A stretch of DNA of 64,000 bases, from contig NZ_JADJTF010000001.1 of the NCBI RefSeq assembly GCF_016711335.1, positions 2,321,401-2,385,400 on the forward strand, read 5' to 3'. The first letter of the stretch is position 1. Each line of letters begins with the position of its first letter. This DNA is from Thiofilum sp. (GTDB taxonomy: Bacteria > Pseudomonadota > Gammaproteobacteria > Thiotrichales > Thiotrichaceae). Shown here piece by piece: positions 10,973 to 23,667 of this stretch. Under the pieces are notes generated by a model. It ran no database searches, had not been told where the DNA came from, and saw nothing but the letters and a program-made list of their open reading frames with translations. The position numbers and the translations under genes are program-made.

Positions 10973-12226
10973 ATGAAAACTATTGCGTCATTGACATCAT
11001 TTAAACGGATTACTACGTTAGCACTGTGTTCGAGCATGGGGTGGGGATTGATCTCCGTAGTAGAGGCTAATGAGCGCTTGCAGGAAATTGCACCCCCTTG
11101 GATGCAGCCCCAAACCGTCGCCCCCCAAATGGTCAGCACTCCAGCACCTGCTACCGCGGCGATTAATAATGTGCTGAAAGCGGCACAACAAGGACATCCA
11201 CGCGCTCAATATGATCTGGCTTTGATGTATCAGACAGGGCAAGGGGTGAAAAGCGACTTAAAGCAATCTACTTACTGGCTTAATCAAGCGGCTCAAGGGG
11301 GTGAGCCTGAGGCTCAATATTTATTAAGCCAATATTATCACCAAGGTACACTGGGTCGTGCGGATATAAAACGTGCTTTGCATTGGGCAACAGAAGCGGC
11401 TAAACGGGGGCATGTGGAAGCACAATATTGGCTGGGTGTGACTTATGTCAATGGGGATGGGGTAAGAGCGGATGTAGATCAAGGGCGCTATTGGCTCAAA
11501 CAGGCAGCACAACGGGGCTTCAAAGAGGCTCAAGTCGCTTTGCAATCAGTTGTAGCACCAGAAGCTCAAGCAGTAGTTTATAAGCGCCCACCTTCTTCAG
11601 CCTCGCCTGTAGAGTTAGCTTTAAATAGCCCTAATATTGAACCCACTACTCCACCTGATTATCCACCCGCTGCGGCTCCTATGCCTGTACAGTTACCAGA
11701 ACCTGATATGGAGGCTATGTTGGCTGCACCTAATACACCCATTCCATCAGCGATTCAGCGTCAAGTACAAGATCAAGCTGAGGCTAGTGGCGGGGCGCGG
11801 ATTAATCTGAATGGTATGAACCCCAATGATATTTTAGAGCTAGCCAATTCAGGGGATCGTTATGCACAGTTTTTGATTGGCGCTTTATACGAGGAAGGTT
11901 CAGGCGGCTTTAGTCAAAGCTATCGTGAGGCGGCGCGTTGGTATCGCAGGGCAGCACGGCAAAACTACCCAAAGGCACAATATAATTTAGCACTGATGTA
12001 TGAGGATGGACGTGGTGTAGAGCAGGATTATAAACAAGCAGGGCAATGGTATGCTCAAGCCGCTAAAGGTGGCTTTACTAAGGCCAAGAATAATTTAGGT
12101 ATTTTATATGTGACGGGGCGAGGGGTGCGCAAAGATCGCAAAACAGCCGAGTATTTATTCAAACAAGCCGCCCAAGAGGGAGATACCGATGCGGCTTATA
12201 ACTTATCACGCTTGGTGAAGGGGTAG
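10973..12226 (+). CDS. Sel1-repeat (TPR-like) protein, secreted
   Basis: Signal peptide, then at least 7 Sel1 repeats (AQYDLALMYQTGQGVKSD...; AQYNLALMYEDGRGVEQDYKQAGQWYAQAA) separated by a Pro-rich linker. Confidence 0.8.
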   Translation: MKTIASLTSFKRITTLALCSSMGWGLISVVEANERLQEIAPPWMQPQTVAPQMVSTPAPATAAINNVLKAAQQGHPRAQYDLALMYQTGQGVKSDLKQSTYWLNQAAQGGEPEAQYLLSQYYHQGTLGRADIKRALHWATEAAKRGHVEAQYWLGVTYVNGDGVRADVDQGRYWLKQAAQRGFKEAQVALQSVVAPEAQAVVYKRPPSSASPVELALNSPNIEPTTPPDYPPAAAPMPVQLPEPDMEAMLAAPNTPIPSAIQRQVQDQAEASGGARINLNGMNPNDILELANSGDRYAQFLIGALYEEGSGGFSQSYREAARWYRRAARQNYPKAQYNLALMYEDGRGVEQDYKQAGQWYAQAAKGGFTKAKNNLGILYVTGRGVRKDRKTAEYLFKQAAQEGDTDAAYNLSRLVKG

Positions 12227-12260: not shown

Positions 12261-12308
12261 GTTAAACCCTAATATGTTTGAACTAAGTGTAAGTGGTTAG
12301 GGTTTAAC
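12261..12308. terminator. Possible bidirectional hairpin between convergent genes
   Basis: gttaaaccctaa (12261-12272) and ttagggtttaac (12297-12308) form a 12-bp stem with a 24-nt loop, between the Sel1 gene (+) and the 12304 ORF (-). The loop is long for a canonical terminator. Confidence 0.3.
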
Positions 12309-13300
12309 TGTTTTGTAATAGTTGGGCTAAATCAGAGCGTTTAATTTGGTTTAATGCAGTCGATAATTCACTTAGTTGCTGACGACATTCTAACCATTCC
12401 CATACGCCCTGAGGTTCTAACCCGTGTTTGAATCGGCGGCGATCAGCAACGGGAATTTCAAAAAGATCGGCTAATTTTATCCAGTCATCTTGCAAGCGTT
12501 CACATAGCTGTATTTTGGCTAAACCACTGTAGTTGAGTGTTTGTTGTACAGGGGAGTTTACCCCGATTTGAACCTCAATAACGGTTCGAGTCTGAGCAGC
12601 AATGACTTCATCTTCTTGAAAAGCACTGACCAATAAAGTTTTCTTACCGCACTCAGAACAAGTGACTTGAAAATACTTGGGTTCTGTGTTCTCACCACGT
12701 TTCAAAAGAAATACATAAAAAGGTGGAGTAATTTTACAGTTATCACCCGATGCTTCTACTCGGTAGCGAATGATAGTTTCACTTTCGGGACGGTAAACGT
12801 GTCCCAGTGCAGATTGAGCTTTGGGTAAGTCTGCTAATAGAGTGACAGGTGAATTTGGCTGTTTAATTGAAACAGCTAGGTCAAATGCCTTATTAATAAA
12901 AACTTGTTCTGGACTAGAAACATCTAAACGTATTTTTTCTTCGGGAAAGTGATAGTTATTTTTTATAAATTTATTTGCTTTCTGTGATCCTTTGAACTTA
13001 TTAAATAGCCAAGAGATAGGGCTGATTGAGACTTGCATAATAGCAGAAATAATACTATGGGAAGGTGTGGTGGGATTTTGAATAGTAATAGCATCAAATT
13101 TTGTACCTTGATTTATAGAGATTTCCTCAGAGGAAGCAGCATTAGAACTAATGAGCTCCGTAGATTCCTTAATAAGATCAGCAGATTCCTTTAATGGGGG
13201 GTTTTCACTTCGAGCTTGAATGAGTGTTTTCTCAGTCTCAGCAATGATCGCCTCCAAACGCATTTTTTCCTCAACGCGAGTTTCTAAATCATAGCTTTTA
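12304..13300 (-). pseudogene. 3' portion (about 329 aa) of a TIR-domain gene split by an IS insertion: coiled coil, unknown middle domain, C-terminal helical EAD/death-like region
   Basis: The reading frame continues seamlessly from the TIR ORF at 14573..15202 once the IS and one copy of the target duplication are removed (...LRALYKS|YDLETRVEEKMRLEAIIAE...). The ORF-track start at 13311 is a GTG inside the IS inverted repeat. Confidence 0.7.
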
Positions 13301-14572
13301 TCTCTGTACACGACAAAACCACTAACTTATTGATTTAGCATGTTTGTCATGGAGATGGTGAAAGTCCACCGCTCCTATGTTTTACTCTCTAGTTACCACA
13401 CAGGAGAGCAAAATGGATCTGAGCGATGGACTACGTGACAGTTTAAAAGCCCACTTGAGTTGGGGCAAGCCCCGTTTGGATTGTTTTGTGGGAATGCTGC
13501 ATACTTTGCTGAGTGCGCGACAAATGAATTTGGCGTTGTTGGCGGTACACATAGATTCTGACACCGACATTGGTTCCCGCTATCGACGGATGCAACGCTT
13601 TTTTAGCCAAGTGTTCTTTAATTACAATGACATTGCCCATTTTCTTATGGGAATGTTCGCCTTTAGTGGTCAACAATACTACCTCACACTCGACAGAACC
13701 AACTGGAAATGGGGCAAATCCAACCTCAATCTCCTGACTTTGGCGGTTGTTTACCAAGGTGCGGCTATCCCCGTTTACTGGATGGTGTTGAACAAACGCG
13801 GTAATTCTAACCAACGTGAACGTATTGCCCTGCTGCAACGATTTATCAGCCAATTCGGGCGCAACAACATCTTGGGTGTGTTGGCTGACCGTGAGTTTAT
13901 TGGTGGTCAATGGTGGAAGTGGTTGTCTTCCAAAGAGATTCCCTACTTGATTCGTATCAAGGGTAATCAGTTGATGACCGACAAACACAAAAAAGAGGCG
14001 CATGTCCGCTCGCTGTTTGCCAACCTCAAGCCGGGTAAACGGCGCGTTCTCCGTCACCGTCGCGACGTTAGCGGGGAATGGGTTTGGCTCAGTGGCTCAA
14101 AGCTGCCCAGTGGTGAGTTGTTGATTATCGCCAGCAACCACTACACGGCTGATCCCATTGGCACTTATCGGCTACGTTGGGAAATTGAAAACCTGTTCCA
14201 ATGCTTGAAAGGGCGTGGTTTTCACATGGAAGCCACTCACTTCACCAAACCCCTCGCATCAAAAAGATGATGGCGTTGCTTGCCATTGGCTTCTGTTGGG
14301 CGCACAAAGTCGGCGAATGGAAGGAAAAAGCCGTCAAGCCTTTGAAGACGAAAAAACATGGACGCAAAGAGCAAAGTGTCTTCCGTTACGGCTTGGACTA
14401 CTTGACCGATTTATTGAATGGAAGGGTACGGGAAAAAGTGGATAGGCTTAGGCTGCTGCTTCTGTTCCTTTGTCCACCACAATTCATGGCGATCGAGGAT
14501 GGACGGATGAAACTCAGGCGATTTTCTTTTGAAAAAGATTCAATGAGTTAAGCGAATTGTCGTGTACAGAGA
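13301..14572 (+). mobile_element. IS4-family insertion sequence (1272 bp) with terminal inverted repeats and a 7-bp target-site duplication
   Basis: Perfect 16-bp terminal inverted repeats tctctgtacacgacaa (13301-13316; reverse complement of 14557-14572), extendable to about 26 bp with mismatches. Flanking direct repeat gctttta at 13294-13300 and 14573-14579. Internal transposase has the Y(2)R(3)E(6)K motif. Confidence 0.85.
13377..14551 (+). CDS. IS4-family DDE transposase (split into two frames by a 1-nt indel at the C4 run 14250-14253)
   Basis: ORFs 13377..14270 and 14201..14551 are consecutive parts of one transposase: LADREF (DDE Asp region) and YRLRWEIENLFQCLK (IS4 Y-2-R-3-E-6-K signature). 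Adding one C in cccc restores ...THFTKPPRIKKMMALLAIGFCWAH... Confidence 0.8.
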
Positions 14573-15202
14573 GCTTTTATATAGAGCACGTAGTTTTTCT
14601 TCGAGCCGTGCTCGGCGCTCAGCATTGATGCTAGTCAGTGCACTAGAGCTATTAGGTGCTGGCGGTGGTGAAGTGTTGTTTTGATTAAGAGTGCTGCTAG
14701 AAGTATTGCCTAAAGGTGGGAGTACTTTTTTCGAGCCTAATGGTGGTGGTATATAAGCAGGTTGTTTAGTCAAATAGCGGTATAAATTATCGTAATCATC
14801 GGGTAGGCGGTAACAGTTATAGGCTTTCAAAGGCAACGGAACATGATCTAGGTTGCCCTCATGTGGAATCACCGGAATAAATTTATCGTTACTCTGAAAC
14901 GCATCATATAAAGTTTGTGAAATCACCACACCTTCAAAACTTACACCTCGACCCTTTTCTAAGTCCTGCCCACGATAGCGCTGCAAATAAATCGGGGTAC
15001 ACATCAGCAAAACAAAATCAGCCGTTTCAATCTGCTGCTCCATCCATTTAATCCAACCTTCACGGGGTGAGCCATTAAGGTATTGATCAATTAAAGCCTC
15101 AATGCCATCCGTGCGTAACTGATCCGCAATAGAGCGCACAAAATCACGGTGAGCTGGTGAGTCATGGCTGTAACTAATGAATACTTTGGGGCTAACAGTC
15201 AT
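14573..15202 (-). pseudogene. 5' portion of the IS-split gene: TIR domain plus Pro/Ser-rich linker
   Basis: KVFISYSHDSPAHRDFVRSIADQL is the bacterial TIR hallmark FISYSHD, followed by a linker PPPLGSKKVLPPLGNTSSSTLNQNNTSPPPAPNSSS. The current ORF ends with 10 IS-encoded codons (SLYTTIRLTH*). Confidence 0.75.
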
Positions 15203-15370
15203 AAACAGTACCTAGTTAGGGGATGCTAGCTAATTATACATAACTTTAAACCAATAGTGCCTTATATAATCCCTAAAAGAGTCAATAGAGTAGGTTTAGG
15301 TAACTGTTAGAATGGCATTGTATAATCTAAGACAAACACTATTTTGACGAGTTGCTTAGGAGCCTATCCC

Positions 15371-16090
15371 ATGAAAGCCGTTGCTTCACTGCGCTATGGA
15401 GTGATTTTCAAAAAAGCCTTTTCTCGACCGGAGATTTTCAAAGCCTTTGTCAAAGATATTCTAGGGATCGAGCTACAAATCGATCAGGTAGAAACAGAAA
15501 AATCCTTTGAGCGTCCTATCGGCTCTGTTGATAGCCGTTTTGATCTATTTGCCGAGGATGAAGATATGCTCCAAATCGAATTCGACCCTAAAAATCGTCA
15601 TGGCAAAGGAGTCGGCGAAATTCCACATAAAATCCTCTATTTATGCCCCAAGTATGTCAACGACGAAACGCCTGAAGCATGGCGCGAATGGCTTTTAGCG
15701 ATTAATGATAGCCTTGATGGGGAGGTCAACGAAGCTGATTACCAAAATGCTTGCGTGCAACGTGTCTTACAACTTATTGAAAAAGACCATATCACCCCTG
15801 CTGAATATGCGCGTATGAAAGATGAATACAGCGAGGAACAATTACGCATCAAAGAATGGGAAGAAGCGATAGAGAAAAGCAAAGCTGAAGGTATGCAGCT
15901 TGGAGTGGAAAAGGGTAAGAGTGAGGAAAAATATGAGGTAGCACGACGTATGTTAGCTAAAGGTTTGGATGTTAGTTTAGTCGCAGAGCTAACGGGTTTG
16001 GAGTTGAGTTTGTGCAGGCATTGGTGTAATGAAAAAGTACCCTCTGATTATTTACAATCAGAGAGCATTTTGTCTTTAATGCGGTTTTAG
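15371..16090 (+). CDS. Rpn-family recombination-promoting nuclease / putative transposase (PD-(D/E)XK, YhgA-like)
   Basis: N-terminal LRYGVIFKKAFSRPEIFKAFVKDILGIEL (Rpn/Transposase_31 signature). The RFDLFAEDEDMLQIEFDPK region matches the PD-(D/E)XK pattern. C-terminal EKGKSEEKYEVARRMLAKGLDVSLVAELTGL is the typical Rpn tail. Confidence 0.6.
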   Translation: MKAVASLRYGVIFKKAFSRPEIFKAFVKDILGIELQIDQVETEKSFERPIGSVDSRFDLFAEDEDMLQIEFDPKNRHGKGVGEIPHKILYLCPKYVNDETPEAWREWLLAINDSLDGEVNEADYQNACVQRVLQLIEKDHITPAEYARMKDEYSEEQLRIKEWEEAIEKSKAEGMQLGVEKGKSEEKYEVARRMLAKGLDVSLVAELTGLELSLCRHWCNEKVPSDYLQSESILSLMRF

Positions 16091-16098
16091 GTGGTGTG

Positions 16099-16287
16099 CT
16101 AACGCGCCTCAGTCTTGGTCACGCCGCAGCGCTTACATTTATATAAGGTAATGAGTCTACCCAAGCGTACATCAAATTGTTTTTCTTGCACCAGTTCCCA
16201 TTTGTGAAACTTGCTTTTGCACAGCATTAGCCCTTCACCTTGATCAGCGTCGACACTTTTGCGACGAAACGGAAGTACTTCACCCAT
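16099..16287 (-). CDS. Small hypothetical protein (62 aa), overlaps the bolA stop by 8 nt
   Basis: ORF only. Contains KCKRCG. Co-oriented and overlapping with BolA, which suggests co-transcription. Confidence 0.3.
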   Translation of the reverse strand: MGEVLPFRRKSVDADQGEGLMLCKSKFHKWELVQEKQFDVRLGRLITLYKCKRCGVTKTEAR

Positions 16288-16771: not shown

Positions 16772-17743
16772 ATGAATCAAAAACAAAATTTTGACAATTT
16801 GGCCCATTATCTCAGCAGTAAAATCATCGGTCAGAGCCAACTCATCAATCGTTTGCTCATTGCCCTCTTAGCCGATGGGCACTTATTAGTAGAGGGTGCA
16901 CCTGGGCTGGCTAAAACACGAGCCATTCAAATACTGGGTCAGGGCATAGAGGGGGATTTTCACCGTGTGCAATTTACTCCCGATCTATTACCCGCTGACA
17001 TCACGGGAACTGAAGTATTTTATCCCAGTGATAGCAGCTTTAAATTTCAAAAAGGTCCACTTTTTCATAATCTGATTCTGGCGGATGAGATCAACCGTGC
17101 GCCTGCTAAGGTACAGTCTGCCCTTTTAGAGGCGATGGCGGAGCGGCAGATTACGGTAGCCGGTACTACATGGAAGCTACCTGAACCTTTTTTAGTCATG
17201 GCCACTCAAAATCCAATTGAGCAAGAGGGTACTTACCAATTACCTGAGGCGCAATTAGACCGCTTTTTAATGCATGTATTGGTCGATTACCCAAACGTGG
17301 ATGAGGAGTACCAAATACTGCAATTGGCTCGCCAAGAAGCGCTCCAGCAAGTACGTCATGACACTAAAGTAAAGCAAGTACTGGTGACACAAGCGGATAT
17401 ATTTGCAGCACGGCAACAAGTATTGAGCCTCTATATGGCACAAAATGTAGAGCAATATATCGTGCAATTAGTCATGGCAACCCGTAAACCCGGACCTTAT
17501 GGTGGATTGCTTAAGGGTAGTATTGCCTTTGGAGCGAGTCCGCGTGCAACTCTAGCCTTAGATCGTTGTTCGCGTGCCTATGCGTGGCTCAAAGGACGTG
17601 ATTTTGTCAGTCCTGAAGACGTTCAAGCAATCGCTCACGATGTGTTGCGTCATCGTATTATTATGACTTTTGAAGCTGAAGCCGACGGTATGACACGCCA
17701 AGGCTTAGTTACTGAATTACTCAATGTGGTGGCAGTACCCTAA
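16772..17743 (+). CDS. MoxR-family AAA+ ATPase
   Basis: Walker A GAPGLAKT, Walker B LILADEINRA, sensor ATQNPIEQEGTYQLPEAQLDRF. First gene of a Bat-like operon. Confidence 0.85.
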   Translation: MNQKQNFDNLAHYLSSKIIGQSQLINRLLIALLADGHLLVEGAPGLAKTRAIQILGQGIEGDFHRVQFTPDLLPADITGTEVFYPSDSSFKFQKGPLFHNLILADEINRAPAKVQSALLEAMAERQITVAGTTWKLPEPFLVMATQNPIEQEGTYQLPEAQLDRFLMHVLVDYPNVDEEYQILQLARQEALQQVRHDTKVKQVLVTQADIFAARQQVLSLYMAQNVEQYIVQLVMATRKPGPYGGLLKGSIAFGASPRATLALDRCSRAYAWLKGRDFVSPEDVQAIAHDVLRHRIIMTFEAEADGMTRQGLVTELLNVVAVP

Positions 17744-18661
17744 ATGCAAGCGGGTGACGGTATTGTTTATAGCTCTTTAAACACCCTTATTCGTTTAAAA
17801 GCACAGGTCGCAGCCTTACAACGCGCTAAAAAACACGCTAAGGCGAGTACGTCGGGTGGGTATCGCACGGTATTTAAAGGGCGCGGGATGGATTTTGCTG
17901 AATCACGCCCTTATCAAGCAGGCGATGATATTCGTACCATTGATTGGCGCGTGACAGCCCGTAGCGGCAAGGTGCATACCAAAGTCTTCCAAGAGGAGCG
18001 TGAACGTCCGGTCATGCTCTGGGTGGATATGCGCCCCTCGATGTATTTTGCTACGCGGGGACGGTTTAAAAGTGTCTTAGCCGCTGAGGTAGCCGCCTTA
18101 TTGGTATGGAAAACCATTGAAGCGGGTGATCGAGTCGGGGGCTTTGTGCAAAGTAGTCACCACTGCGGAGAATTAAAGCCTAGTCATACGCGGGGTGCGG
18201 CCTTGCATTTATTGCGCAGTATTGCGGATACCACCCAATTACAGCCCACTGCTCAGACGGCATTAAATCTATTAGATGATAGTTGGGGGCGTTTAAGGCG
18301 AGTGGCTAGTGCTGGTACTCAAGTACTGATCATTAGTGATTTTAGACAGACTACTCCGGCTGCTTTACGTCAATTAGCTTTAATGTCACAGCATTGTGAG
18401 CTAGGTTTGATTCATATCCAAGACCCCTTTGAAGCACAAATGCCCGCTAATCTGAATGGTAAACTACGCCTCACCGATGGGCGTAATAGTTTATGGATGT
18501 TATTGCAACAACGTTTTCGGGAACGTTATGCTGAGCGCTCTAGTCTACAACTCAAGCAATTAAAACAATTTGCTAGACGGTATCGTATGAGCTTTTTGAC
18601 GTTAAGTACTGATATGAATACTACCGAGCGCCTACGTTTATTAGCGCGGGGTATTGCATGA
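17744..18661 (+). CDS. DUF58 domain protein (VWA-like, MoxR partner)
   Basis: FKGRGMDFAESRPYQAGDDIRTIDWRVTAR is the DUF58 signature. Position directly after MoxR. Confidence 0.8.
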   Translation: MQAGDGIVYSSLNTLIRLKAQVAALQRAKKHAKASTSGGYRTVFKGRGMDFAESRPYQAGDDIRTIDWRVTARSGKVHTKVFQEERERPVMLWVDMRPSMYFATRGRFKSVLAAEVAALLVWKTIEAGDRVGGFVQSSHHCGELKPSHTRGAALHLLRSIADTTQLQPTAQTALNLLDDSWGRLRRVASAGTQVLIISDFRQTTPAALRQLALMSQHCELGLIHIQDPFEAQMPANLNGKLRLTDGRNSLWMLLQQRFRERYAERSSLQLKQLKQFARRYRMSFLTLSTDMNTTERLRLLARGIA

Positions 18662-19149
18662 CCCCCAATACCGCAGAATTACCGCTACGCCCGATTCATT
18701 TTCCTGATCCCGTGGGTTGGTGGCCTCCTGCAATGGGGTGGTGGTTACTATTGGCTTTAATACTGGTAACTATCGGTGCTTTGTTGGTGTGGTATTTCAA
18801 GCGCCAACACAACCAGCAACGCTTGGCTATTCAACAGGCACTTAAAGAATTAGACACCATTGAACAACACTATCAAAACGATAAGCGTCAATTAGTACAG
18901 CACATTTCAGCCTTATTGCGGCGGGTCGCTATGCAGCAATATGGACGTACTGCAACGGCGGGTTTAGCGGGTACGGCTTGGGCAACCTTTTTGCAGCAAG
19001 CAGGCAAGCAAGGTATGAATCCTGATTTAGCCAAAGCATTAAGCGAAATGCCCTATCGCCCGGTGGAAGATGTCAATACTAAGCAATTAGTTGCGCAAGT
19101 ACGTAGTTGGATTAATGCCCAACTCAAACCCCATTTGAGGAGGGCGTAG
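18658..19149 (+). CDS. DUF4381-type membrane protein
   Basis: 163-aa ORF with a single TM helix (WWLLLALILVTIGALLVWYF). Conserved position between DUF58 and BatA in Bat operons. Confidence 0.55.
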   Translation: MTPNTAELPLRPIHFPDPVGWWPPAMGWWLLLALILVTIGALLVWYFKRQHNQQRLAIQQALKELDTIEQHYQNDKRQLVQHISALLRRVAMQQYGRTATAGLAGTAWATFLQQAGKQGMNPDLAKALSEMPYRPVEDVNTKQLVAQVRSWINAQLKPHLRRA

Positions 19150-19150
19150 T

Positions 19151-20131
19151 ATGTACGAACTCTTATGGTGGTGGGCGCTGGCTTTATTACCTTTGCCGCT
19201 AGTGGTGTACTGGTTGTTTCCCAAAATTAGCGCGGACAATACGCTAGCCTTAAAAGTGCCGAGCTTGACTGAGTTTGAATTAGGGGAGTGGGTGGAGCAA
19301 AGTACATGGAGTAGTCGCCTAAAATTATTATTAGCAGGCATGATCTGGGGCACTTTAGTGCTCGCATTAGCGCGTCCGGTTTGGATTGGAGAACCGGTGT
19401 CATTACCGTTTAGTGGGCGTGATTTAATGCTTGCAGTGGATCTGTCTGGCAGTATGCGTGAAGAGGATTTTGAACTAAATGGTCGAGTGGTAGATCGATT
19501 AACAGCGACCCAATGGGTAGCTAGTGATTTCATTCAAAGGCGCCAAGGCGACCGTTTAGGACTGATCGTATTTGCAGATCAAGCCTATTTACAGGTTCCG
19601 CTCACCTTTGATACCGCAACTGTTAGACGTTTAATGCGTGAATCCTTTATTGGTTTAGCGGGCGAGCGCACCGCGATTGGCGATGCGATTGGTCTAGCCC
19701 TCAAACGTTTAAAAGATAATCCTGAAAAAAATCGTGTGCTGATTCTAATGACGGATGGAGCTAATACCGCAGGCTCGGTTAATCCGGCGGAGGCATCTGA
19801 TATGGCGGCAAAGTCGGGATTAAAAATCTATACAGTAGGTATTGGCTCCGAGGCGAATGCAGTGAGAAGTGCGTTTGGATTTTCCTTAACTAATCCTTCG
19901 GCTGACTTGGATGAGGGCTTATTAAAGCTGATTGCCAGTAAAACCGGAGGGCAATATTTCCGTGCACGCGATACCACCGAATTTGAGCGCATCTATACTG
20001 AACTAGATCGTTTAGAGCCGATTGAGCAAGAAGGCAAACAATGGCGACCGCAGCGTGAGTTATTTACTTGGCCTTTGGCACTAGCCTTGTTTCTAGGTGT
20101 GGGTCTATTAGTGTGGAGGCGCATGGAATAA
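19151..20131 (+). CDS. batA: VWA domain protein BatA
   Basis: N-terminal TM helix, VWA MIDAS (LMLAVDLSGSM ... MTDGANT) and C-terminal TM helix. Start overlaps the previous stop. Confidence 0.8.
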   Translation: MYELLWWWALALLPLPLVVYWLFPKISADNTLALKVPSLTEFELGEWVEQSTWSSRLKLLLAGMIWGTLVLALARPVWIGEPVSLPFSGRDLMLAVDLSGSMREEDFELNGRVVDRLTATQWVASDFIQRRQGDRLGLIVFADQAYLQVPLTFDTATVRRLMRESFIGLAGERTAIGDAIGLALKRLKDNPEKNRVLILMTDGANTAGSVNPAEASDMAAKSGLKIYTVGIGSEANAVRSAFGFSLTNPSADLDEGLLKLIASKTGGQYFRARDTTEFERIYTELDRLEPIEQEGKQWRPQRELFTWPLALALFLGVGLLVWRRME

Positions 20132-20132
20132 A

Positions 20133-21938
20133 GTGGACTGGTCTGAATTGCACTTTTTATATCCTTGGTGGCTGGTGTTATTAGTAGCACTCCCTTTAGT
20201 GTTATGGCTGATCTATGCGCCTAAACAAACGCAATGGCAACACTGGATCGATGACAAACTAGCGCCCTTTGTGCTCACTGGAAAAATGGCAGAGTCACAA
20301 CGCTGGTCACTAATACTATTAGGTTTAGCTTGGGTATTAGCGGTAGTAGCTTTAGCGGGTCCTACTTGGCAAAAGCGTGAAGTACCCGTGTATAACAATC
20401 CGCATGCGTTAGTGATTGGTTTAGATTTGTCTATTTCGATGTGGGCTAAAGATGTAGCGCCAGATCGCCTGAATCAAGCCCGTTTTAAAATATTAGATAT
20501 TTTAAAGCAGCGCAAAGACGGACAAACCGCTTTGATTGTGTTCGCAGGTGATGCGTTTGTGGTAACACCTCTGACGACTGATACCGTCACTATTGCGGAA
20601 CAAATTAAAAATTTAACGCCCGATATTATGCCCGCATTAGGTAGTCGTTTTGCCCCTGCCATTACCCAAGCGCAGCAATTACTCACTCAAGCCAATGCGC
20701 AACAAGGCGATATTTTATTAGTGACGGATGGCGTTGATGATGCAGCACTGGCTGTAGAGGCAGCACAAGTCGCACGAAGTGCAGGTTTTATGGTATCCAC
20801 TTTAGCGATAGGCACTGAAAAGGGCGCACCTATTCCTATTCCGAATCAAAGTTTTCTTAAAGATGATCAAGGTCGCACCGTCATGGCTGAAGTCAATAAA
20901 ACGGCCATTGCAGCAGTCGCTACGGCAGGACAAGGTTTAGCCTTAGAAACCACGATTAATGATAGTGAAATTGCGCAACTACAAGCTTTCTGGGAGCAGC
21001 ATATTCAAGCTCAAGCGCCGCAATTACAAAATCAACAGGTAGAAGTTTGGTTAAATGCAGGCTATTGGTTTCTGATTCCACTCATTCCATTAGTGTTGGG
21101 TATTTTTAGGCGTGGTTGGCTAGTGCTAGCGGTGGCTTTGCTACTAAGTGCTCGTCCAGAACCAGTGTTGGCTGTGGAATTGGCGCATTTATTTCAAACG
21201 CCAGATCAACAGGCGATGCAAGCCATGCAGCAGCAGGATTTTAAACAAGCCGAGCAACAGTTCGAGCGTCCCGATTGGAAAGCTGCCGCAGCCTATGAAG
21301 GAAAAAATTGGGCAGCAGCAGAGCAATATTATAAAAACCAGACTGCGCTTACAGATCGCTATAATTATGCTAATGCTCTAGCCAAGCAAGGTAAGCTGCA
21401 AGAAGCCTTAAATGCTTATGATCAAGTATTAAACCAAGATCCTCAACATCAGGATGCACTGTATAATCGTAAAGTGGTTGAGGACGAGTTAAAAAAACAG
21501 CAACAAGCCCAGCAAAATCAACAACAGAATCAGAACCAACAAGAACAGCAGCAAAACCAAAACTCATCACAGTCCTCTGACCCTCAATCAGGTGCATCTG
21601 ATCAACAGCAGAATCAAAACGCGGAGCAAGCCGGAGACAGTCAAGGGCAAAGCGACCAACAGCCTAAATCTCAAGACCCAGCCGCAGCTAAGGACACCCA
21701 ACCAGAGGCTGCTGAACCAGAGCCAAAAGAGACGCGACCAGAGTCACAACAGTCACCTAATACCGCTCAGACTAATAGTGCTCCTACACCCGAATCCAGT
21801 GAGCAAAGTCGCGAGCAACAACAAGCGACCGAGCAATGGTTGAGACGGATTCCCGATGATCCGGCAGAATTATGGCGACGTAAGTTTTTATATCAATATC
21901 AACAGCGTGCTCCACAACAGCAGGGTTCACAATGGTAA
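20133..21938 (+). CDS. batB: VWA plus TPR protein BatB-like with a long Q/N/acidic low-complexity tail
   Basis: TM helices, VWA MIDAS (LVIGLDLSISM ... VTDGVDD), TPR-like segment (ALAKQGKLQEALNAYDQVLNQDPQHQDALYNRK), then about 150 aa of QQNQQQNQNQQEQQQ, acidic and Pro-rich sequence. Confidence 0.8.
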   Translation: MDWSELHFLYPWWLVLLVALPLVLWLIYAPKQTQWQHWIDDKLAPFVLTGKMAESQRWSLILLGLAWVLAVVALAGPTWQKREVPVYNNPHALVIGLDLSISMWAKDVAPDRLNQARFKILDILKQRKDGQTALIVFAGDAFVVTPLTTDTVTIAEQIKNLTPDIMPALGSRFAPAITQAQQLLTQANAQQGDILLVTDGVDDAALAVEAAQVARSAGFMVSTLAIGTEKGAPIPIPNQSFLKDDQGRTVMAEVNKTAIAAVATAGQGLALETTINDSEIAQLQAFWEQHIQAQAPQLQNQQVEVWLNAGYWFLIPLIPLVLGIFRRGWLVLAVALLLSARPEPVLAVELAHLFQTPDQQAMQAMQQQDFKQAEQQFERPDWKAAAAYEGKNWAAAEQYYKNQTALTDRYNYANALAKQGKLQEALNAYDQVLNQDPQHQDALYNRKVVEDELKKQQQAQQNQQQNQNQQEQQQNQNSSQSSDPQSGASDQQQNQNAEQAGDSQGQSDQQPKSQDPAAAKDTQPEAAEPEPKETRPESQQSPNTAQTNSAPTPESSEQSREQQQATEQWLRRIPDDPAELWRRKFLYQYQQRAPQQQGSQW

Positions 21939-23667
21939 AGCGTATTATAATAGTTAGCTTATTATGGCTAATGATGGTTAATCTGAGTTGGGCGACGGTC
22001 AGTAGTAGTGTCGATCAAACGGAATTGACTTATGGAGATGCGTTACAACTCACCATTACCGCCAACCACGGTACAGGGGTTGCGCCTGATTTGTCGGTGC
22101 TGAATGATGATTTTGAAATTGCCTCGCAGCGCCATGAAAGCCAGTTTAGTTTAATTAATGGGACTAGCTCGCAAACCTCACGCTGGATTTTATCTCTCTA
22201 TCCACGCAAGTCTGGAAAATTAGTGATTCCCGCTATTACGGTGGGAGCAGAAATAACAGATCCGATTGTGCTCACCATTAATGACGATACTACCCCCAAC
22301 AGCACTAATAATGATAAAGGCAAATCTACCTCAGCGGATGTGTTAATCGAATTTGAAATAGAGCCAAAAAATCCACTAGTACAGCAGCAAATTATTTTAA
22401 CTCAGCGCTTATTAGCGAGTGTGCGTCTGGATAATACCCAAGCTTCCTTAACGCTACCACAAATTGAGCAGGGTAAAGGTCTAGTACGCCAACTCGGTTC
22501 ACCCACAGCGCATAATAGGGTAATACAAGGTAAGCGCTATGATGTAATTGAACGTAAATTTGCTTTAATGTCCCAGCAAAGTGGCACTTTAACCATTGGG
22601 CGTACTATTTTTGATGGGGTGATTCCAGATGCTAATGCTAATAATGACCCATTAGGACACTATTTTGCTTTTAGTTTGGGGGGGAAGAGCGTCCGGCGTT
22701 TTTCTAAACCGTTTGATATTACCATCGCCCCACAAGATCCGAATTACACCGGACAATATTGGTTACCCGCTAAAAATATTAGTTTAAATGCTTCATGGGA
22801 TAAACCTTTAGATCAGCTCAAAGCGGGTGAACCAGTCACCTTAACCATTGCGATTATGGCGGAAGGTTTAGCGGCAGAGCAGTTACCTGCATTGACTATT
22901 CCAGTGCCAGTAGGTATGAAGGCATATAGTGATCAGCCCTTATTCAATGACCAAGTGCGCGACGATGGAGTGATTGGTATTCGTCAGGAGAAATGGGTAT
23001 TTATAGCCTCTGGTGGTGGAGAGTTTACCATTCCTGAAATTACTTTGGATTGGTGGAATACTAAAACACAACAGCAAGAATTGGCGCGTTTAGATGCTAC
23101 ACAATTTAAAGTAGGGGGCGAACCTTTGGTTGTGAATACTCCCGATCCTGCTACAGTCGCCAAACCTGAACCTCAACATAGCGCCCAGCTCCCTAGCGCA
23201 CAACCCTCAAGCGACACCAGACCTCAACACACTATGCCTTGGTGGTTGTGGGCGGTTTTATTAGTGTTAATGGGGGAGTGATTGCAGCACTTGCCTATCG
23301 CCGAGGTAAGTATAAGGCTCAGTCTATGAGTAGTATGCAGGAAAGCTTGCAGCGCGGTAGTTTAAATCAACTCATTAGCGCCTGCGCTCAACATGATAAA
23401 CAAGGGGCGCAATTAGGCTTAACCGCATGGGCACGAGATGTCTTAGCTGTGCCGAGTCCGCAATGGGTGAATCTGCGTGCCATAGCCACCCCTGAATTAA
23501 AAGCAGCTATGGATAGTTTAGAGCAAGCCCTGTATAGCAAAGACGCCTCCAGCAAAAAGTGGGATGGATCAGCACTGATCAAAGCCGTAAAAGCCTTTAA
23601 ATATCCACTGAATCGGCATGAGACAACAACGCATTTGATGCCTTTATATCCTTTAGCAGATAAATAA
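21932..23667 (+). CDS. batD: BatD-family protein (reading frame broken at the G5 run 23272-23276; full length about 591 aa if one G is added)
   Basis: ORFs 21932..23281 and 23239..23667 are consecutive. With G6 the TM helix reads PWWLWAVLLVLMGGVIAALAYRRGKYK (a classic stop-transfer) followed by the usual BatD cytoplasmic tail. Confidence 0.7.

What the first reader, a model, noticed from the sequence alone, without database searches (positions are those of the whole stretch)
12304..15202. Reconstructed 539-aa protein: TIR, Pro/Ser linker, coiled coil, unknown middle domain, C-terminal helical EAD/death-like module; candidate novel conflict-system effector
The N-terminus has the bacterial TIR hallmark KVFISYSHDS, shared by Thoeris ThsB, TIR-STING and other NADase immune effectors. 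The C-terminal about 60 aa (DWIKLADLFEIPVADRRRFKHGLEPQGVWEWLECRQQLSELSTALNQIKRSDLAQLLQ) has the amphipathic pattern of effector-associated death-like adaptor domains, which tether effectors to STAND/NTPase partners. The middle region of about 200 aa, containing CSECGKK, matches nothing I recognise. This combination is not a described defence-system architecture. The neighbourhood is mobile: the IS itself and an Rpn-family PD-(D/E)XK nuclease lie next to it.
Basis: partly seen in the sequence, partly recalled or inferred. Interest (0 to 1): 0.75.

Follow-up and report, generated by a model that had tools for sequence, protein, structure and literature searches.

The report
IS-disrupted SEFIR NADase effector with death-like adaptor
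This is a real but transposon-broken gene for a bacterial immune "suicide" enzyme (a SEFIR/TIR-type NAD-destroying domain) carrying a death-like docking domain; the gene class was described in 2021-2022, so only its exact domain combination and a little-studied middle domain are new.

Summary
An IS4-family insertion sequence (13302-14571, 9-bp target duplication) splits one minus-strand gene. Removing it restores an in-frame 539-aa protein.

- **N-terminus:** it belongs to the TIR superfamily but is the SEFIR type (Pfam SEFIR beats TIR_2; PADLOC bSEFIR E 8e-48). It keeps an invariant glutamate, E90.
- **C-terminus:** it is a confident Pfam bDLD3 death-like adaptor (E 7e-27).
- **Middle:** it is a conserved ~125-aa Ig-like beta-sandwich found in 263 protein clusters, distantly related to DUF7363. 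It recurs beside CHAT, caspase, TIR and metallopeptidase domains, and half of the relatives carry an adaptor-sized C-terminal tail (EAD7, EAD1 or EAD8 where identified). The "CSECGKK" cysteines are not conserved.

The closest bDLD3 relatives occur as TIR-, phosphorylase- or esterase-bDLD3 effectors and as bDLD3-STAND NTPases, sometimes in the same locus. This is the system Kaur et al. described in 2021.

The most likely function of the intact protein is an NAD+-depleting effector docked by bDLD3 onto a STAND sensor encoded elsewhere. No partner lies in this 64-kb window, and the gene here is inactivated. It is a new domain combination within a known kind, of modest interest.

The parts
14581..15202 (-). 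5' part of the split gene (codons 1-207 and the first base of codon 208): SEFIR domain, Pro/Ser linker and the start of the coiled coil
   Evidence: ORF; reconstruction; coordinate mapping
14723..15190 (-). SEFIR (TIR-superfamily) domain, residues 5-160. The candidate catalytic Glu E90 is the codon at 14933-14935.
   Evidence: Pfam SEFIR E 1.7e-18 and TIR_2 E 9.8e-14. PADLOC bSEFIR E 8e-48. pLDDT above 90. Foldseek top hits are SEFIR structures 9ot1 and 5y8e. E90 is 100% conserved in 120 homologues.
14642..14722 (-). Pro/Ser/Asn-rich disordered linker, residues 161-187
   Evidence: pLDDT below 50 for residues 167-185
14572..14580 (.). Target-site duplication copy (AGCTTTTAT on the + strand)
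13302..14571 (+). IS4-family insertion sequence, 1270 bp. Terminal inverted repeats lie at its two ends (repeat arms reported at 13301-13333 and 14540-14572). The transposase is read as two overlapping ORFs in different frames, 13377-14270 and 14201-14551.
   Evidence: Inverted repeat I1. NF033591 transpos_IS4_2 scores 191.9 bits, above the cutoff of 152, and Pfam DDE_Tnp_1 matches. Frame change seen.
13293..13301 (.). Target-site duplication copy (AGCTTTTAT)
12304..13301 (-). 3' part of the split gene (remainder of codon 208 to codon 539, plus the stop codon at 12304-12306)
   Evidence: The called ORF is identical to the NCBI hypothetical protein WAQ53_08190 of a Thiofilum sp. MAG.
13135..13301 (-). 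Rest of the coiled-coil helices (residues about 208-263). It continues the helix that begins at 14641 on the other side of the IS.
   Evidence: AF2 helices 188-240 and 245-263. The PADLOC bSEFIR profile covers residues 2-270.
12949..13134 (-). Low-confidence linker with short helices, residues 264-325
   Evidence: pLDDT 26-67; not conserved in relatives
12547..12948 (-). Conserved ~125-aa Ig-like beta-sandwich 'middle' domain, residues 326-459, a distant DUF7363 relative
12307..12531 (-). bDLD3 bacterial death-like adaptor domain, residues 465-539
   Evidence: Pfam PF20690 E 7.3e-27, 93.6 bits. Six predicted helices. W481, W508/W510 and R529-S-D531 match the hallmarks given in PMC8195603.

Best explanation
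The locus is an inactivated copy of a modular, adaptor-coupled immune effector. The intact 539-aa protein would read SEFIR NADase, flexible linker, coiled coil, Ig-like beta-sandwich, bDLD3 death-like domain.

**Proposed mechanism**
1. The C-terminal bDLD3 binds a matching bDLD3 on a sensor/switch protein, most likely a STAND NTPase of the nSTAND1(-FGS) or AAA16/NACHT-TPR type, encoded elsewhere in the genome (inferred from relatives).
2. Invader sensing makes that NTPase oligomerise.
3. The tethered SEFIR domains are brought together, helped by the coiled coil.
4. They hydrolyse NAD+ through the conserved Glu90, causing growth arrest or abortive infection.

**Shown here:** the domain identities, the IS insertion, and the architectures and pairings of relatives.

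**Inferred:** NADase activity, the identity of the partner, and activation by induced proximity.

In this genome the gene is split by an IS4-family element, so the full-length effector cannot be made.
For: - **Domains.** SEFIR and bDLD3 exceed Pfam cutoffs. The PADLOC bSEFIR hit has E 8e-48.
- **SEFIR identity.** The structure model matches solved SEFIR domains best, and TIR NADases (SARM1, SPARTA) next. E90 in the motif GVxxEG is invariant in 120 homologues. It aligns with a Glu in B. cereus SEFIR, whereas non-enzymatic human ACT1 has Lys at that position.
- **Activity.** The literature reports that bacterial SEFIR depletes NAD+.
- **bDLD3 relatives.** The 43 closest relatives found (up to 62% identity) fall into two sets among the 20 ORFs scanned. 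One set has a C-terminal bDLD3 on effectors: TIR_2, PNP_UDP phosphorylase or DUF676 esterase. The other has an N-terminal bDLD3 on nSTAND1, sometimes with FGE-sulfatase, or on AAA16/NACHT-like plus TPR proteins. Both types occur in one locus in L026, L031 and L033-L035. This reproduces the adaptor-pairing principle and the TIR-bDLD3 with bDLD3-STAND-FGS pair of Kaur et al. 2021.
- **Fused versions.** Close SEFIR homologues in Thiothrix, Thiolinea and Nitrosomonas are fused directly to STAND, TPR or FGE-sulfatase modules. They look like the one-chain version of the same system.
- **Parallel architecture.** An Anaerolineae protein (L008) reads TIR_2, middle domain, EAD7.
- **IS insertion.** Inverted repeats, 9-bp duplication and in-frame restoration.
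Against: - No second bDLD3, STAND NTPase or other conflict-system gene lies in the 64-kb window. The rest of the genome could not be searched.
- No full-length homologue with this exact domain order was found.
- The role of the beta-sandwich is unknown.
- NADase activity is inferred only from homology and one conserved residue.
- The C-terminal third of the bSEFIR profile (positions 283-412) is not matched.
Confidence: 0.7

Rival explanations
1. It was an autonomous single-gene bSEFIR-type defence protein, as in Millman et al. 2022. The C-terminal half (beta-sandwich plus death-like domain) would itself sense the phage and drive self-assembly. No partner NTPase would be needed.
For: - The PADLOC bSEFIR hit is strong and includes the coiled coil.
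- bSEFIR works as one gene.
- The gene is solitary among housekeeping genes.
- Middle-domain proteins elsewhere are also scattered singly.
- Death-fold domains can self-polymerise (general knowledge).
Against: - Only profile positions 36-282 of 412 are matched, so the bSEFIR C-terminal region is replaced.
- Every close bDLD3 relative examined belongs to an effector or STAND dichotomy, with pairs in the same locus.
- Adaptor-bearing effectors are known to be encoded away from their core system (PMC7159879).
Confidence: 0.15
2. The SEFIR domain is a non-enzymatic assembly scaffold, like IL-17R/ACT1 SEFIR. The protein would signal only by forming higher-order complexes that recruit other effectors.
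For: - The best structural match is the helical IL-17RA/RB/ACT1 SEFIR assembly (9ot1, E 1e-8).
- The mutation that abolished bSEFIR defence in the preprint (D40A) was at a residue predicted to mediate SEFIR-SEFIR interaction.
Against: - Bacterial SEFIR is reported as an NAD+-depleting domain.
- The Glu at position 90 is invariant in bacterial homologues and is replaced by Lys in ACT1.
- TIR NADases are the next-best structural matches.
Confidence: 0.05
3. The beta-sandwich plus death-like domain is a bacterial counterpart of the animal UPA-death-fold module (UNC5, PIDD, ankyrin; UPA-CARD of NLRP1/CARD8). It would act as a protease-controlled latch: a CHAT or caspase protease cuts near the sandwich and releases or activates the SEFIR effector.
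For: - The full-length model aligns over 230 columns to ankyrin-B ZU5-ZU5-UPA-DD (E 1.5e-5).
- Of the 106 middle-domain proteins scanned, 20 match CHAT and 5 match the caspase domain.
- Proteolytic release of effectors is proposed for these systems.
Against: - Foldseek with the sandwich alone ranks complement MG domains, an amylopullulanase domain and a mannanase (ManDH5) first (E about 1e-4). CARDB and PapD-like sandwiches follow at E about 1e-3. No UPA or ZU5 entry appears in the top 50.
- There is no sequence-level signal to ZU5, UPA or FIIND in Pfam or PDB searches.
- Which UNC5B domain was aligned could not be seen.
Confidence: 0.08
4. The two ORFs are unrelated genes that merely flank an IS, and the 539-aa 'reconstruction' is an artefact.
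For: No intact full-length orthologue was recovered from any collection searched.
Against: - The 9-bp target duplication is perfect, and excision is exactly in frame.
- The 3' ORF's GTG start and its first codons lie inside the IS end.
- The bSEFIR profile and a predicted continuous helix both span the junction.
Confidence: 0.02

Closest known systems
TIR-bDLD3 effectors paired with bDLD3-STAND(-FGS) NTPases (Kaur, Burroughs, Iyer & Aravind, eLife 2021, PMC8195603)
   Same: - A TIR-superfamily effector sits at the N-terminus and a bDLD3 death-like adaptor at the C-terminus.
- The host is a filamentous Thiotrichaceae-type bacterium.
- The nearest bDLD3 relatives found here sit on TIR_2, PNP or esterase effectors and on nSTAND1/FGE-sulfatase NTPases, sometimes side by side.
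   Different: - The effector is SEFIR-type rather than TIR_2.
- About 300 extra residues (coiled coil plus Ig-like sandwich) separate effector and adaptor. The TIR-bDLD3 ORFs examined are only 270-360 codons stop-to-stop.
- No partner is adjacent.
- The gene is broken by an IS.
bSEFIR single-gene anti-phage system (Millman et al. 2022; PADLOC PDLC03957)
   Same: - It has an N-terminal SEFIR domain with the SEFIR hit stronger than the TIR hit, followed by a helical region.
- The profile match has E 8e-48 over residues 2-270.
- The family is reported to deplete NAD+.
   Different: - The last third of the bSEFIR profile is not matched. Here it is replaced by a beta-sandwich and a bDLD3 adaptor, which implies coupling to a partner rather than autonomy.
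- Function is untested.
Effector-associated-domain (EAD) coupled effectors of NTP-dependent conflict systems (Kaur et al., eLife 2020, PMC7159879)
   Same: - The layout is modular: an enzymatic effector plus a small non-catalytic adaptor.
- The middle domain occurs in proteins carrying EAD7, EAD1, EAD8, EAD9 or bDLD1, alongside CHAT, caspase, TIR, metallopeptidase or lipase domains.
- Such effectors are often encoded away from the core system.
   Different: - Targeted term searches of the two papers' main text found no named beta-sandwich between effector and adaptor. Their supplements were not read.
- None of the top 149 middle-domain representatives carries a bDLD3 or a SEFIR-like domain by my local searches.
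Pfam DUF7363 (PF24063)
   Same: Relatives of the middle domain match it over nearly its whole length (profile positions 1-100 of 107) at sub-threshold scores. The best is 27.3 bits against a cutoff of 28.3. Thirteen of 32 aligned members match at E<=10.
   Different: The window's own copy gives no DUF7363 hit even at E<=10. The family here is at best a divergent sister group. No paper in the searchable library mentions DUF7363.
UPA-death domain supramodule of UNC5, ankyrin and PIDD
   Different: The similarity cannot be separated from generic Ig-like or MG sandwiches. There is no sequence similarity and no ZU5 domain.

Membership tests
bSEFIR defence family (Millman 2022 / PADLOC) | An N-terminal SEFIR hit that is stronger than the TIR hit (the selection rule stated in the paper's methods) | tested here: met
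   Pfam SEFIR E 1.7e-18 (67.8 bits) against TIR_2 E 9.8e-14 (52.3 bits) at residues 5-144. The rule is quoted.
bSEFIR defence family (Millman 2022 / PADLOC) | Match to the family HMM over its whole length | tested here: inconclusive
   PDLC03957 E 8.1e-48, but only profile positions 36-282 of 412 are aligned. The C-terminal third is replaced.
bSEFIR defence family (Millman 2022 / PADLOC) | Stand-alone phage defence with NAD+ depletion | not testable with these tools
   Needs expression of the restored gene.
TIR-superfamily NADases | Conserved catalytic glutamate after strand C | tested here: met
   E90 (GVSFEG) is 100% conserved in 120 homologues. It aligns with Glu in B. cereus SEFIR 5y8e and with Lys in human ACT1. 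Equivalence to SARM1 E642 rests on my own reading of the motif, not on a superposition.
   A PADLOC scan of the whole protein at E<=1 returns only bSEFIR. No STING or SIR2/SLOG domain appears in the protein. None appears among the neighbouring proteins scanned with Pfam and PADLOC.
bDLD3 bacterial death-like domain (Pfam PF20690; Kaur 2021) | Profile match above the curated cutoff | tested here: met
   93.6 bits against 27.1, E 7.3e-27, residues 468-538 covering profile positions 2-72 of 73.
bDLD3 bacterial death-like domain (Pfam PF20690; Kaur 2021) | [quoted passage not shown] | tested here: met
   W481, W508/W510 and R529-S-D531. Six helices are predicted at 465-538, pLDDT 65-87. The hallmarks are as stated.
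bDLD3 bacterial death-like domain (Pfam PF20690; Kaur 2021) | A second bDLD3 copy on a core component (STAND, iSTAND or another NTPase) in the same genome | not testable with these tools
Relatives do show such pairs.
vWA-MoxR ternary conflict systems (VMAP, iSTAND, iSTAND2) | A MoxR plus vWA pair with a third VMAP or iSTAND component carrying the cognate adaptor | tested here: not met
   The nearby MoxR-DUF58-DUF4381-vWA-vWA/TPR-BatD genes (16772-23281) have the layout of the canonical Bat operon. They contain no bDLD3 and give no PADLOC hit.
Pfam DUF7363 (PF24063) | Profile match above the curated cutoff (28.3 bits) | tested here: not met
   The window copy gives no hit at E<=10. The best relative scores 27.3 bits.
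UPA domain (ZU5-UPA-DD supramodule) | Specific structural or sequence similarity to UPA, beyond a generic Ig-like sandwich | tested here: inconclusive
IS4-family insertion sequence | DDE transposase of the family, terminal inverted repeats and a target-site duplication | tested here: met
   NF033591 scores 191.9 bits, above the cutoff of 152. DDE_Tnp_1 matches. The inverted repeats are 33 nt and the duplication is 9 bp. The transposase reading frame is interrupted.

The most novel reading that the evidence does not exclude
The ~125-aa beta-sandwich is an unnamed, widespread module that occurs next to effector and adaptor domains in adaptor-coupled immune effectors. It is found in 263 clusters, mostly from filamentous Chloroflexota and Gammaproteobacteria. 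It may work as a regulated latch or ligand sensor, for example a protease-cleaved or target-binding element that controls release or activation of the effector. That would be a bacterial parallel to the UPA-death-fold modules of animal PIDD, UNC5 and NLRP1/CARD8.
Probability: 0.12. Interest if true: 0.6.

Novelty: new variant of a known kind. Interest (0 to 1): 0.3.

Why it matters
This locus adds little to what is already known about adaptor-coupled TIR or SEFIR effectors, and the copy here is dead.

Two points have some value.
- **A split form of a SEFIR-STAND system.** It links the experimentally validated bSEFIR NADase family to the death-like-adaptor/STAND systems, which have so far only been predicted computationally. 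It appears to be a split version of the SEFIR-STAND fusions common in Thiothrix and Nitrosomonas relatives.
- **A recurring middle domain.** It exposes a conserved Ig-like domain family that recurs with CHAT, caspase, TIR and metallopeptidase effectors and EAD-type adaptors. I found no name or function for it in the literature I could search. If that domain proves to be a regulatory element, it would matter for how these effectors are kept off and switched on.

Tried and rejected
- **Full-length homologues.** A word-indexed search with the full protein returned only SEFIR-domain matches, with at most 52% coverage. With the 3' ORF it returned only itself.
- **Partner in the window.** Single-sequence phmmer and a bDLD3 HMM built from 43 metagenomic relatives found no second bDLD3, SEFIR or middle domain.
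- **Nearby MoxR-vWA genes as a ternary conflict system.** Rejected. They are the Bat operon, with no adaptor domain and no PADLOC hit.
- **UvrD/Rep helicase as a Gabija GajB.** The PADLOC hits are generic superfamily matches, and none of the other neighbouring proteins scanned gave a GajA or other Gabija match.
- **CSECGKK as a zinc motif.** Rejected. The cysteines are not conserved in the family, and the zinc-ribbon hits are at noise level.
- **IS-free orthologue.** A metagenome scan with the middle domain plus bDLD3 matched only through bDLD3. No orthologue with the same architecture appeared.
- **Conserved neighbours of the middle-domain family.** No single family dominates across 18 genomic loci and three more contigs.
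- **Genome scan with alignment A2.** It was repeated with six sequences.
- **Unavailable resources.** The afdb50 fold library was not available. The final Cell Host & Microbe version of the bSEFIR paper is not held, so the published catalytic-site mutant could not be checked.
- **UPA homology.** Not supported beyond generic fold similarity.
Full report
**1. What is in the sequence**

Two minus-strand ORFs occupy the region: 14540-15202 (220 aa) and 12304-13311 (335 aa). Between them lies a 1270-bp element, 13302-14571. It has imperfect terminal inverted repeats beginning CTCTGTACACGAC (33 nt, 82% complementary). It is flanked by a perfect 9-bp direct repeat, AGCTTTTAT, at 13293-13301 and 14572-14580.

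The element encodes a DDE transposase that passes the NCBIfam IS4-family cutoff (NF033591, 191.9 bits against 152).

Three results show the join is real and not a coincidence of frames:
- The GTG start of the 3' ORF and its first codons lie inside the IS end.
- The PADLOC bSEFIR profile aligns continuously over residues 2-270, across the junction at 210/211.
- AlphaFold2 predicts a single helix, 188-240, through the junction.

The 3' ORF is identical to a hypothetical protein of a Thiofilum sp. MAG. In another assembly of that organism the contig ends 114 nt upstream of that ORF, inside the IS, as expected for a repeated element.

**2. The N-terminal domain**

Residues 5-160 match Pfam SEFIR (E 1.7e-18) better than TIR_2 (E 9.8e-14). 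The only PADLOC hit is bSEFIR (E 8e-48). The model is confident here (pLDDT above 90).

Its best structural matches are, in order:
- the SEFIR domains of the IL-17RA/RB/ACT1 assembly (9ot1, E 1e-8, TM 0.74-0.82);
- the Bacillus cereus SEFIR crystal structure (5y8e, 29% identity);
- TIR NADases such as SARM1 and SPARTA.

By sequence it finds the same SEFIR entries in the PDB. More than 750 homologues exist, mostly at 55-68% identity over the SEFIR domain, from Thiothrix, Thiolinea, Nitrosomonas and Methylomonas. There the domain is fused to STAND NTPases (NB-ARC, AAA_16, NACHT), TPR arrays, FGE-sulfatase or CHAT.

However, the bacterial SEFIR defence protein is reported to deplete NAD+ through its SEFIR domain (10.1101/2024.02.11.579819; 10.64898/2026.09.04.749371; system described in 10.1101/2022.05.11.491447).

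Glu90 in the motif GVSFEG is invariant in all 120 aligned homologues. It aligns with a Glu in the B. cereus SEFIR, whereas non-enzymatic human ACT1 has Lys there. Its equivalence to the TIR catalytic Glu is my inference from motif position, not from a superposition.

**3. The C-terminal domain**

Residues 468-538 match Pfam bDLD3 (bacterial Death-like domain 3) at 93.6 bits against a cutoff of 27.1. Six helices are predicted. The hallmarks stated by Kaur et al. 2021 are present: Trp in helices 2 and 4, and RxD at the start of helix 6. Here they are W481, W508/W510 and R529-S-D531.

**4. The middle region**

An exhaustive HMMER search with residues 262-467 found 263 representative clusters at E<=1e-3. 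All align to residues about 326-459.

The alignment defines a ~125-aa domain with the consensus IEExIRLDVAxP...FDLAVAVRQP...YRIEV...FQVT...AYQED..LAAQTR. The cysteines of 'CSECGKK' are not conserved.

The window copy matches no Pfam model. Relatives match DUF7363 (PF24063) just below threshold, over nearly its whole length.

The domain is modelled with high confidence as a beta-sandwich (pLDDT above 90). The fold searches give:
- **Foldseek:** complement MG domains, the amylopullulanase domain and a mannanase come first at E about 1e-4, with CARDB and PapD-like sandwiches lower at E about 1e-3. No UPA entry is in the top 50.

I conclude it is a generic Ig-like sandwich, and the resemblance to UPA is not specific.

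**5. What the middle domain keeps company with**

Among 106 full-length family members, the co-occurring Pfam domains are EAD7 (29), CHAT (20), EAD1 (9), caspase (5), EAD8 (4), APH kinase (3), and TCAD9, EAD9, TIR_2, metallopeptidase M10 and bDLD1 (2 each).

Positions within 149 representatives:
- 105 have more than 120 residues upstream of the domain;
- 74 have an adaptor-sized tail of 50-120 residues downstream;
- 51 end with the domain.

Genomic examples include metallopeptidase-middle-EAD1, PGAP1-like α/β-hydrolase-middle, CHAT-middle, SIR2-middle-CHAT, and TIR_2-middle-EAD7 in an Anaerolineae MAG (L008). The last is the same design as the protein studied here.

None of these representatives carries a bDLD3 or a SEFIR-like domain by my local searches. 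The exact combination here was therefore not found elsewhere.

The family is found mostly in Chloroflexota and Gammaproteobacteria, lineages that include many filamentous forms. This fits the 'multicellular habit' bias reported for these systems. Its genes sit singly in varied, mostly housekeeping contexts with no dominant neighbour.

**6. What the adaptor points to**

A metagenome scan found 43 relatives of this bDLD3 at up to 62% identity. Among the 20 ORFs scanned, two types appear:
- **Effectors with a C-terminal bDLD3:** TIR_2, PNP_UDP phosphorylase or DUF676 esterase.
- **STAND NTPases with an N-terminal bDLD3:** nSTAND1, in one case with FGE-sulfatase, or AAA_16/NACHT-like with TPR.

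Both types occur in the same locus in L026, L031 and L033-L035. This is the system published by Kaur et al. 2021. They list TIR among bDLD3-fused effectors. They describe a conserved pair of TIR-bDLD3 with bDLD3-STAND-FGS. They also note that a Thiotrichaceae genome holds several bDLD3 proteins, some of them away from the core system. The adaptor-pairing principle itself is from Kaur et al. 2020.

**7. The neighbourhood**

Within 64 kb there is no second bDLD3, SEFIR or middle domain. The flanking genes are a Rep/UvrD helicase, an EamA transporter, a Sel1-repeat protein, BolA and a canonical MoxR-DUF58-DUF4381-BatA-BatB-BatD operon.

bDLD3 is known to associate with MoxR-vWA ternary systems. 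This operon, however, lacks any adaptor domain and gives no PADLOC hit, so I regard its proximity as coincidental.

The 'Rpn-family nuclease' at 15344-16090 is only a sub-threshold match to the C-terminal half of the profile. The 3' half of the gene has lower G+C (0.385) than the flanks (0.445-0.461), which is compatible with horizontal acquisition.

**8. Most likely mechanism**

The intact protein was an adaptor-coupled NAD+-depleting effector.
- The bDLD3 docks on a cognate bDLD3 of a STAND-type sensor encoded elsewhere.
- Oligomerisation of the sensor, together with the coiled coil, clusters the SEFIR domains.
- The clustered domains hydrolyse NAD+ through Glu90, producing growth arrest or abortive infection.

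Shown here: the domain identities, the IS disruption and the pairing of relatives. Inferred: catalysis, the partner and the activation mode. In this genome the gene is inactivated. My confidence is about 0.7.

Rival explanations:
- an autonomous bSEFIR-like protein (0.15);
- a purely scaffolding SEFIR (0.05);
- a UPA-death-like proteolytic latch, which could coexist with the main model (0.08);
- an artefactual reconstruction (0.02).

**9. Novelty and score**

The kind is known: bSEFIR (2022), and bDLD3-coupled TIR effectors with STAND partners (2021).

New here:
- SEFIR in place of TIR_2;
- the coiled coil plus Ig-like sandwich inserted between effector and adaptor;
- the observation that this sandwich is a recurrent module that I did not find named in the papers I could search.

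The copy is a pseudogene in a MAG, and no partner or function could be tested. I rate it a new variant of a known kind, with interest 0.3.

Noticed in passing
window 13377-14551 (+): The IS4-family transposase is read as two overlapping ORFs in different frames (13377-14270 and 14201-14551). The switch lies near the CCCC and AAAAA runs at about 14245-14265. It could be a degenerate IS copy or a homopolymer assembly error.
   Followed up: partly
window 15344-16090 (+): A 248-aa ORF with a TTG start, divergent from the SEFIR gene. It matches only the C-terminal half of the Rpn-family profile and scores below the cutoff (38.7 bits against 52.1). It is probably a truncated or decayed Rpn-like gene.
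   Followed up: partly
window 16772-23281 (+): A complete MoxR-DUF58-DUF4381-vWA(BatA)-vWA/TPR(BatB)-BatD operon lies 1.5 kb from a gene whose adaptor family is known for links to MoxR-vWA conflict systems. The MoxR also hits Pfam bpMoxR (E 2e-14). No adaptor domain was found in the operon, so the proximity is judged coincidental.
   Followed up: yes
window 16099-16287 (-): A 62-aa ORF with Cys at position 23 and a C-x2-C at positions 51-54 lies between the Rpn-like remnant and bolA. It has no family match above noise.
   Followed up: no
window 12304-13301 compared with its flanks: The 3' half of the split gene has G+C 0.385. The flanking housekeeping genes are at 0.445-0.461 and the IS at 0.475. 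This hints that the effector gene was acquired horizontally.
   Followed up: partly
L015:1148-2197 (Candidatus Hodarchaeota MAG contig): One relative of the middle beta-sandwich domain lies on a contig assigned to an Asgard archaeon MAG. The contig is only 3.3 kb, so mis-binning is possible.
   Followed up: no
L023:7411-8465 (Caldilineaceae MAG): A stand-alone middle-domain protein (154 aa) is encoded immediately after a 177-aa protein whose only Pfam hit is EAD1. Domain and adaptor therefore also occur as separate adjacent genes.
   Followed up: no
proteins P0002-P0120: SEFIR domains closely similar to this one (most 55-68% identical) are greatly expanded in Thiothrix, Thiolinea, Nitrosomonas and Methylomonas. 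There they are fused to STAND NTPases, TPR arrays, FGE-sulfatase, CHAT and, in one cyanobacterium, a purine phosphorylase domain.
   Followed up: partly
window 10973-12226 (+): A 417-aa Sel1-repeat protein with a hydrophobic N-terminus, possibly a signal peptide, lies directly downstream of the split gene. Its weak PADLOC 'PtuA' hit covers only 47 residues and looks spurious.
   Followed up: no
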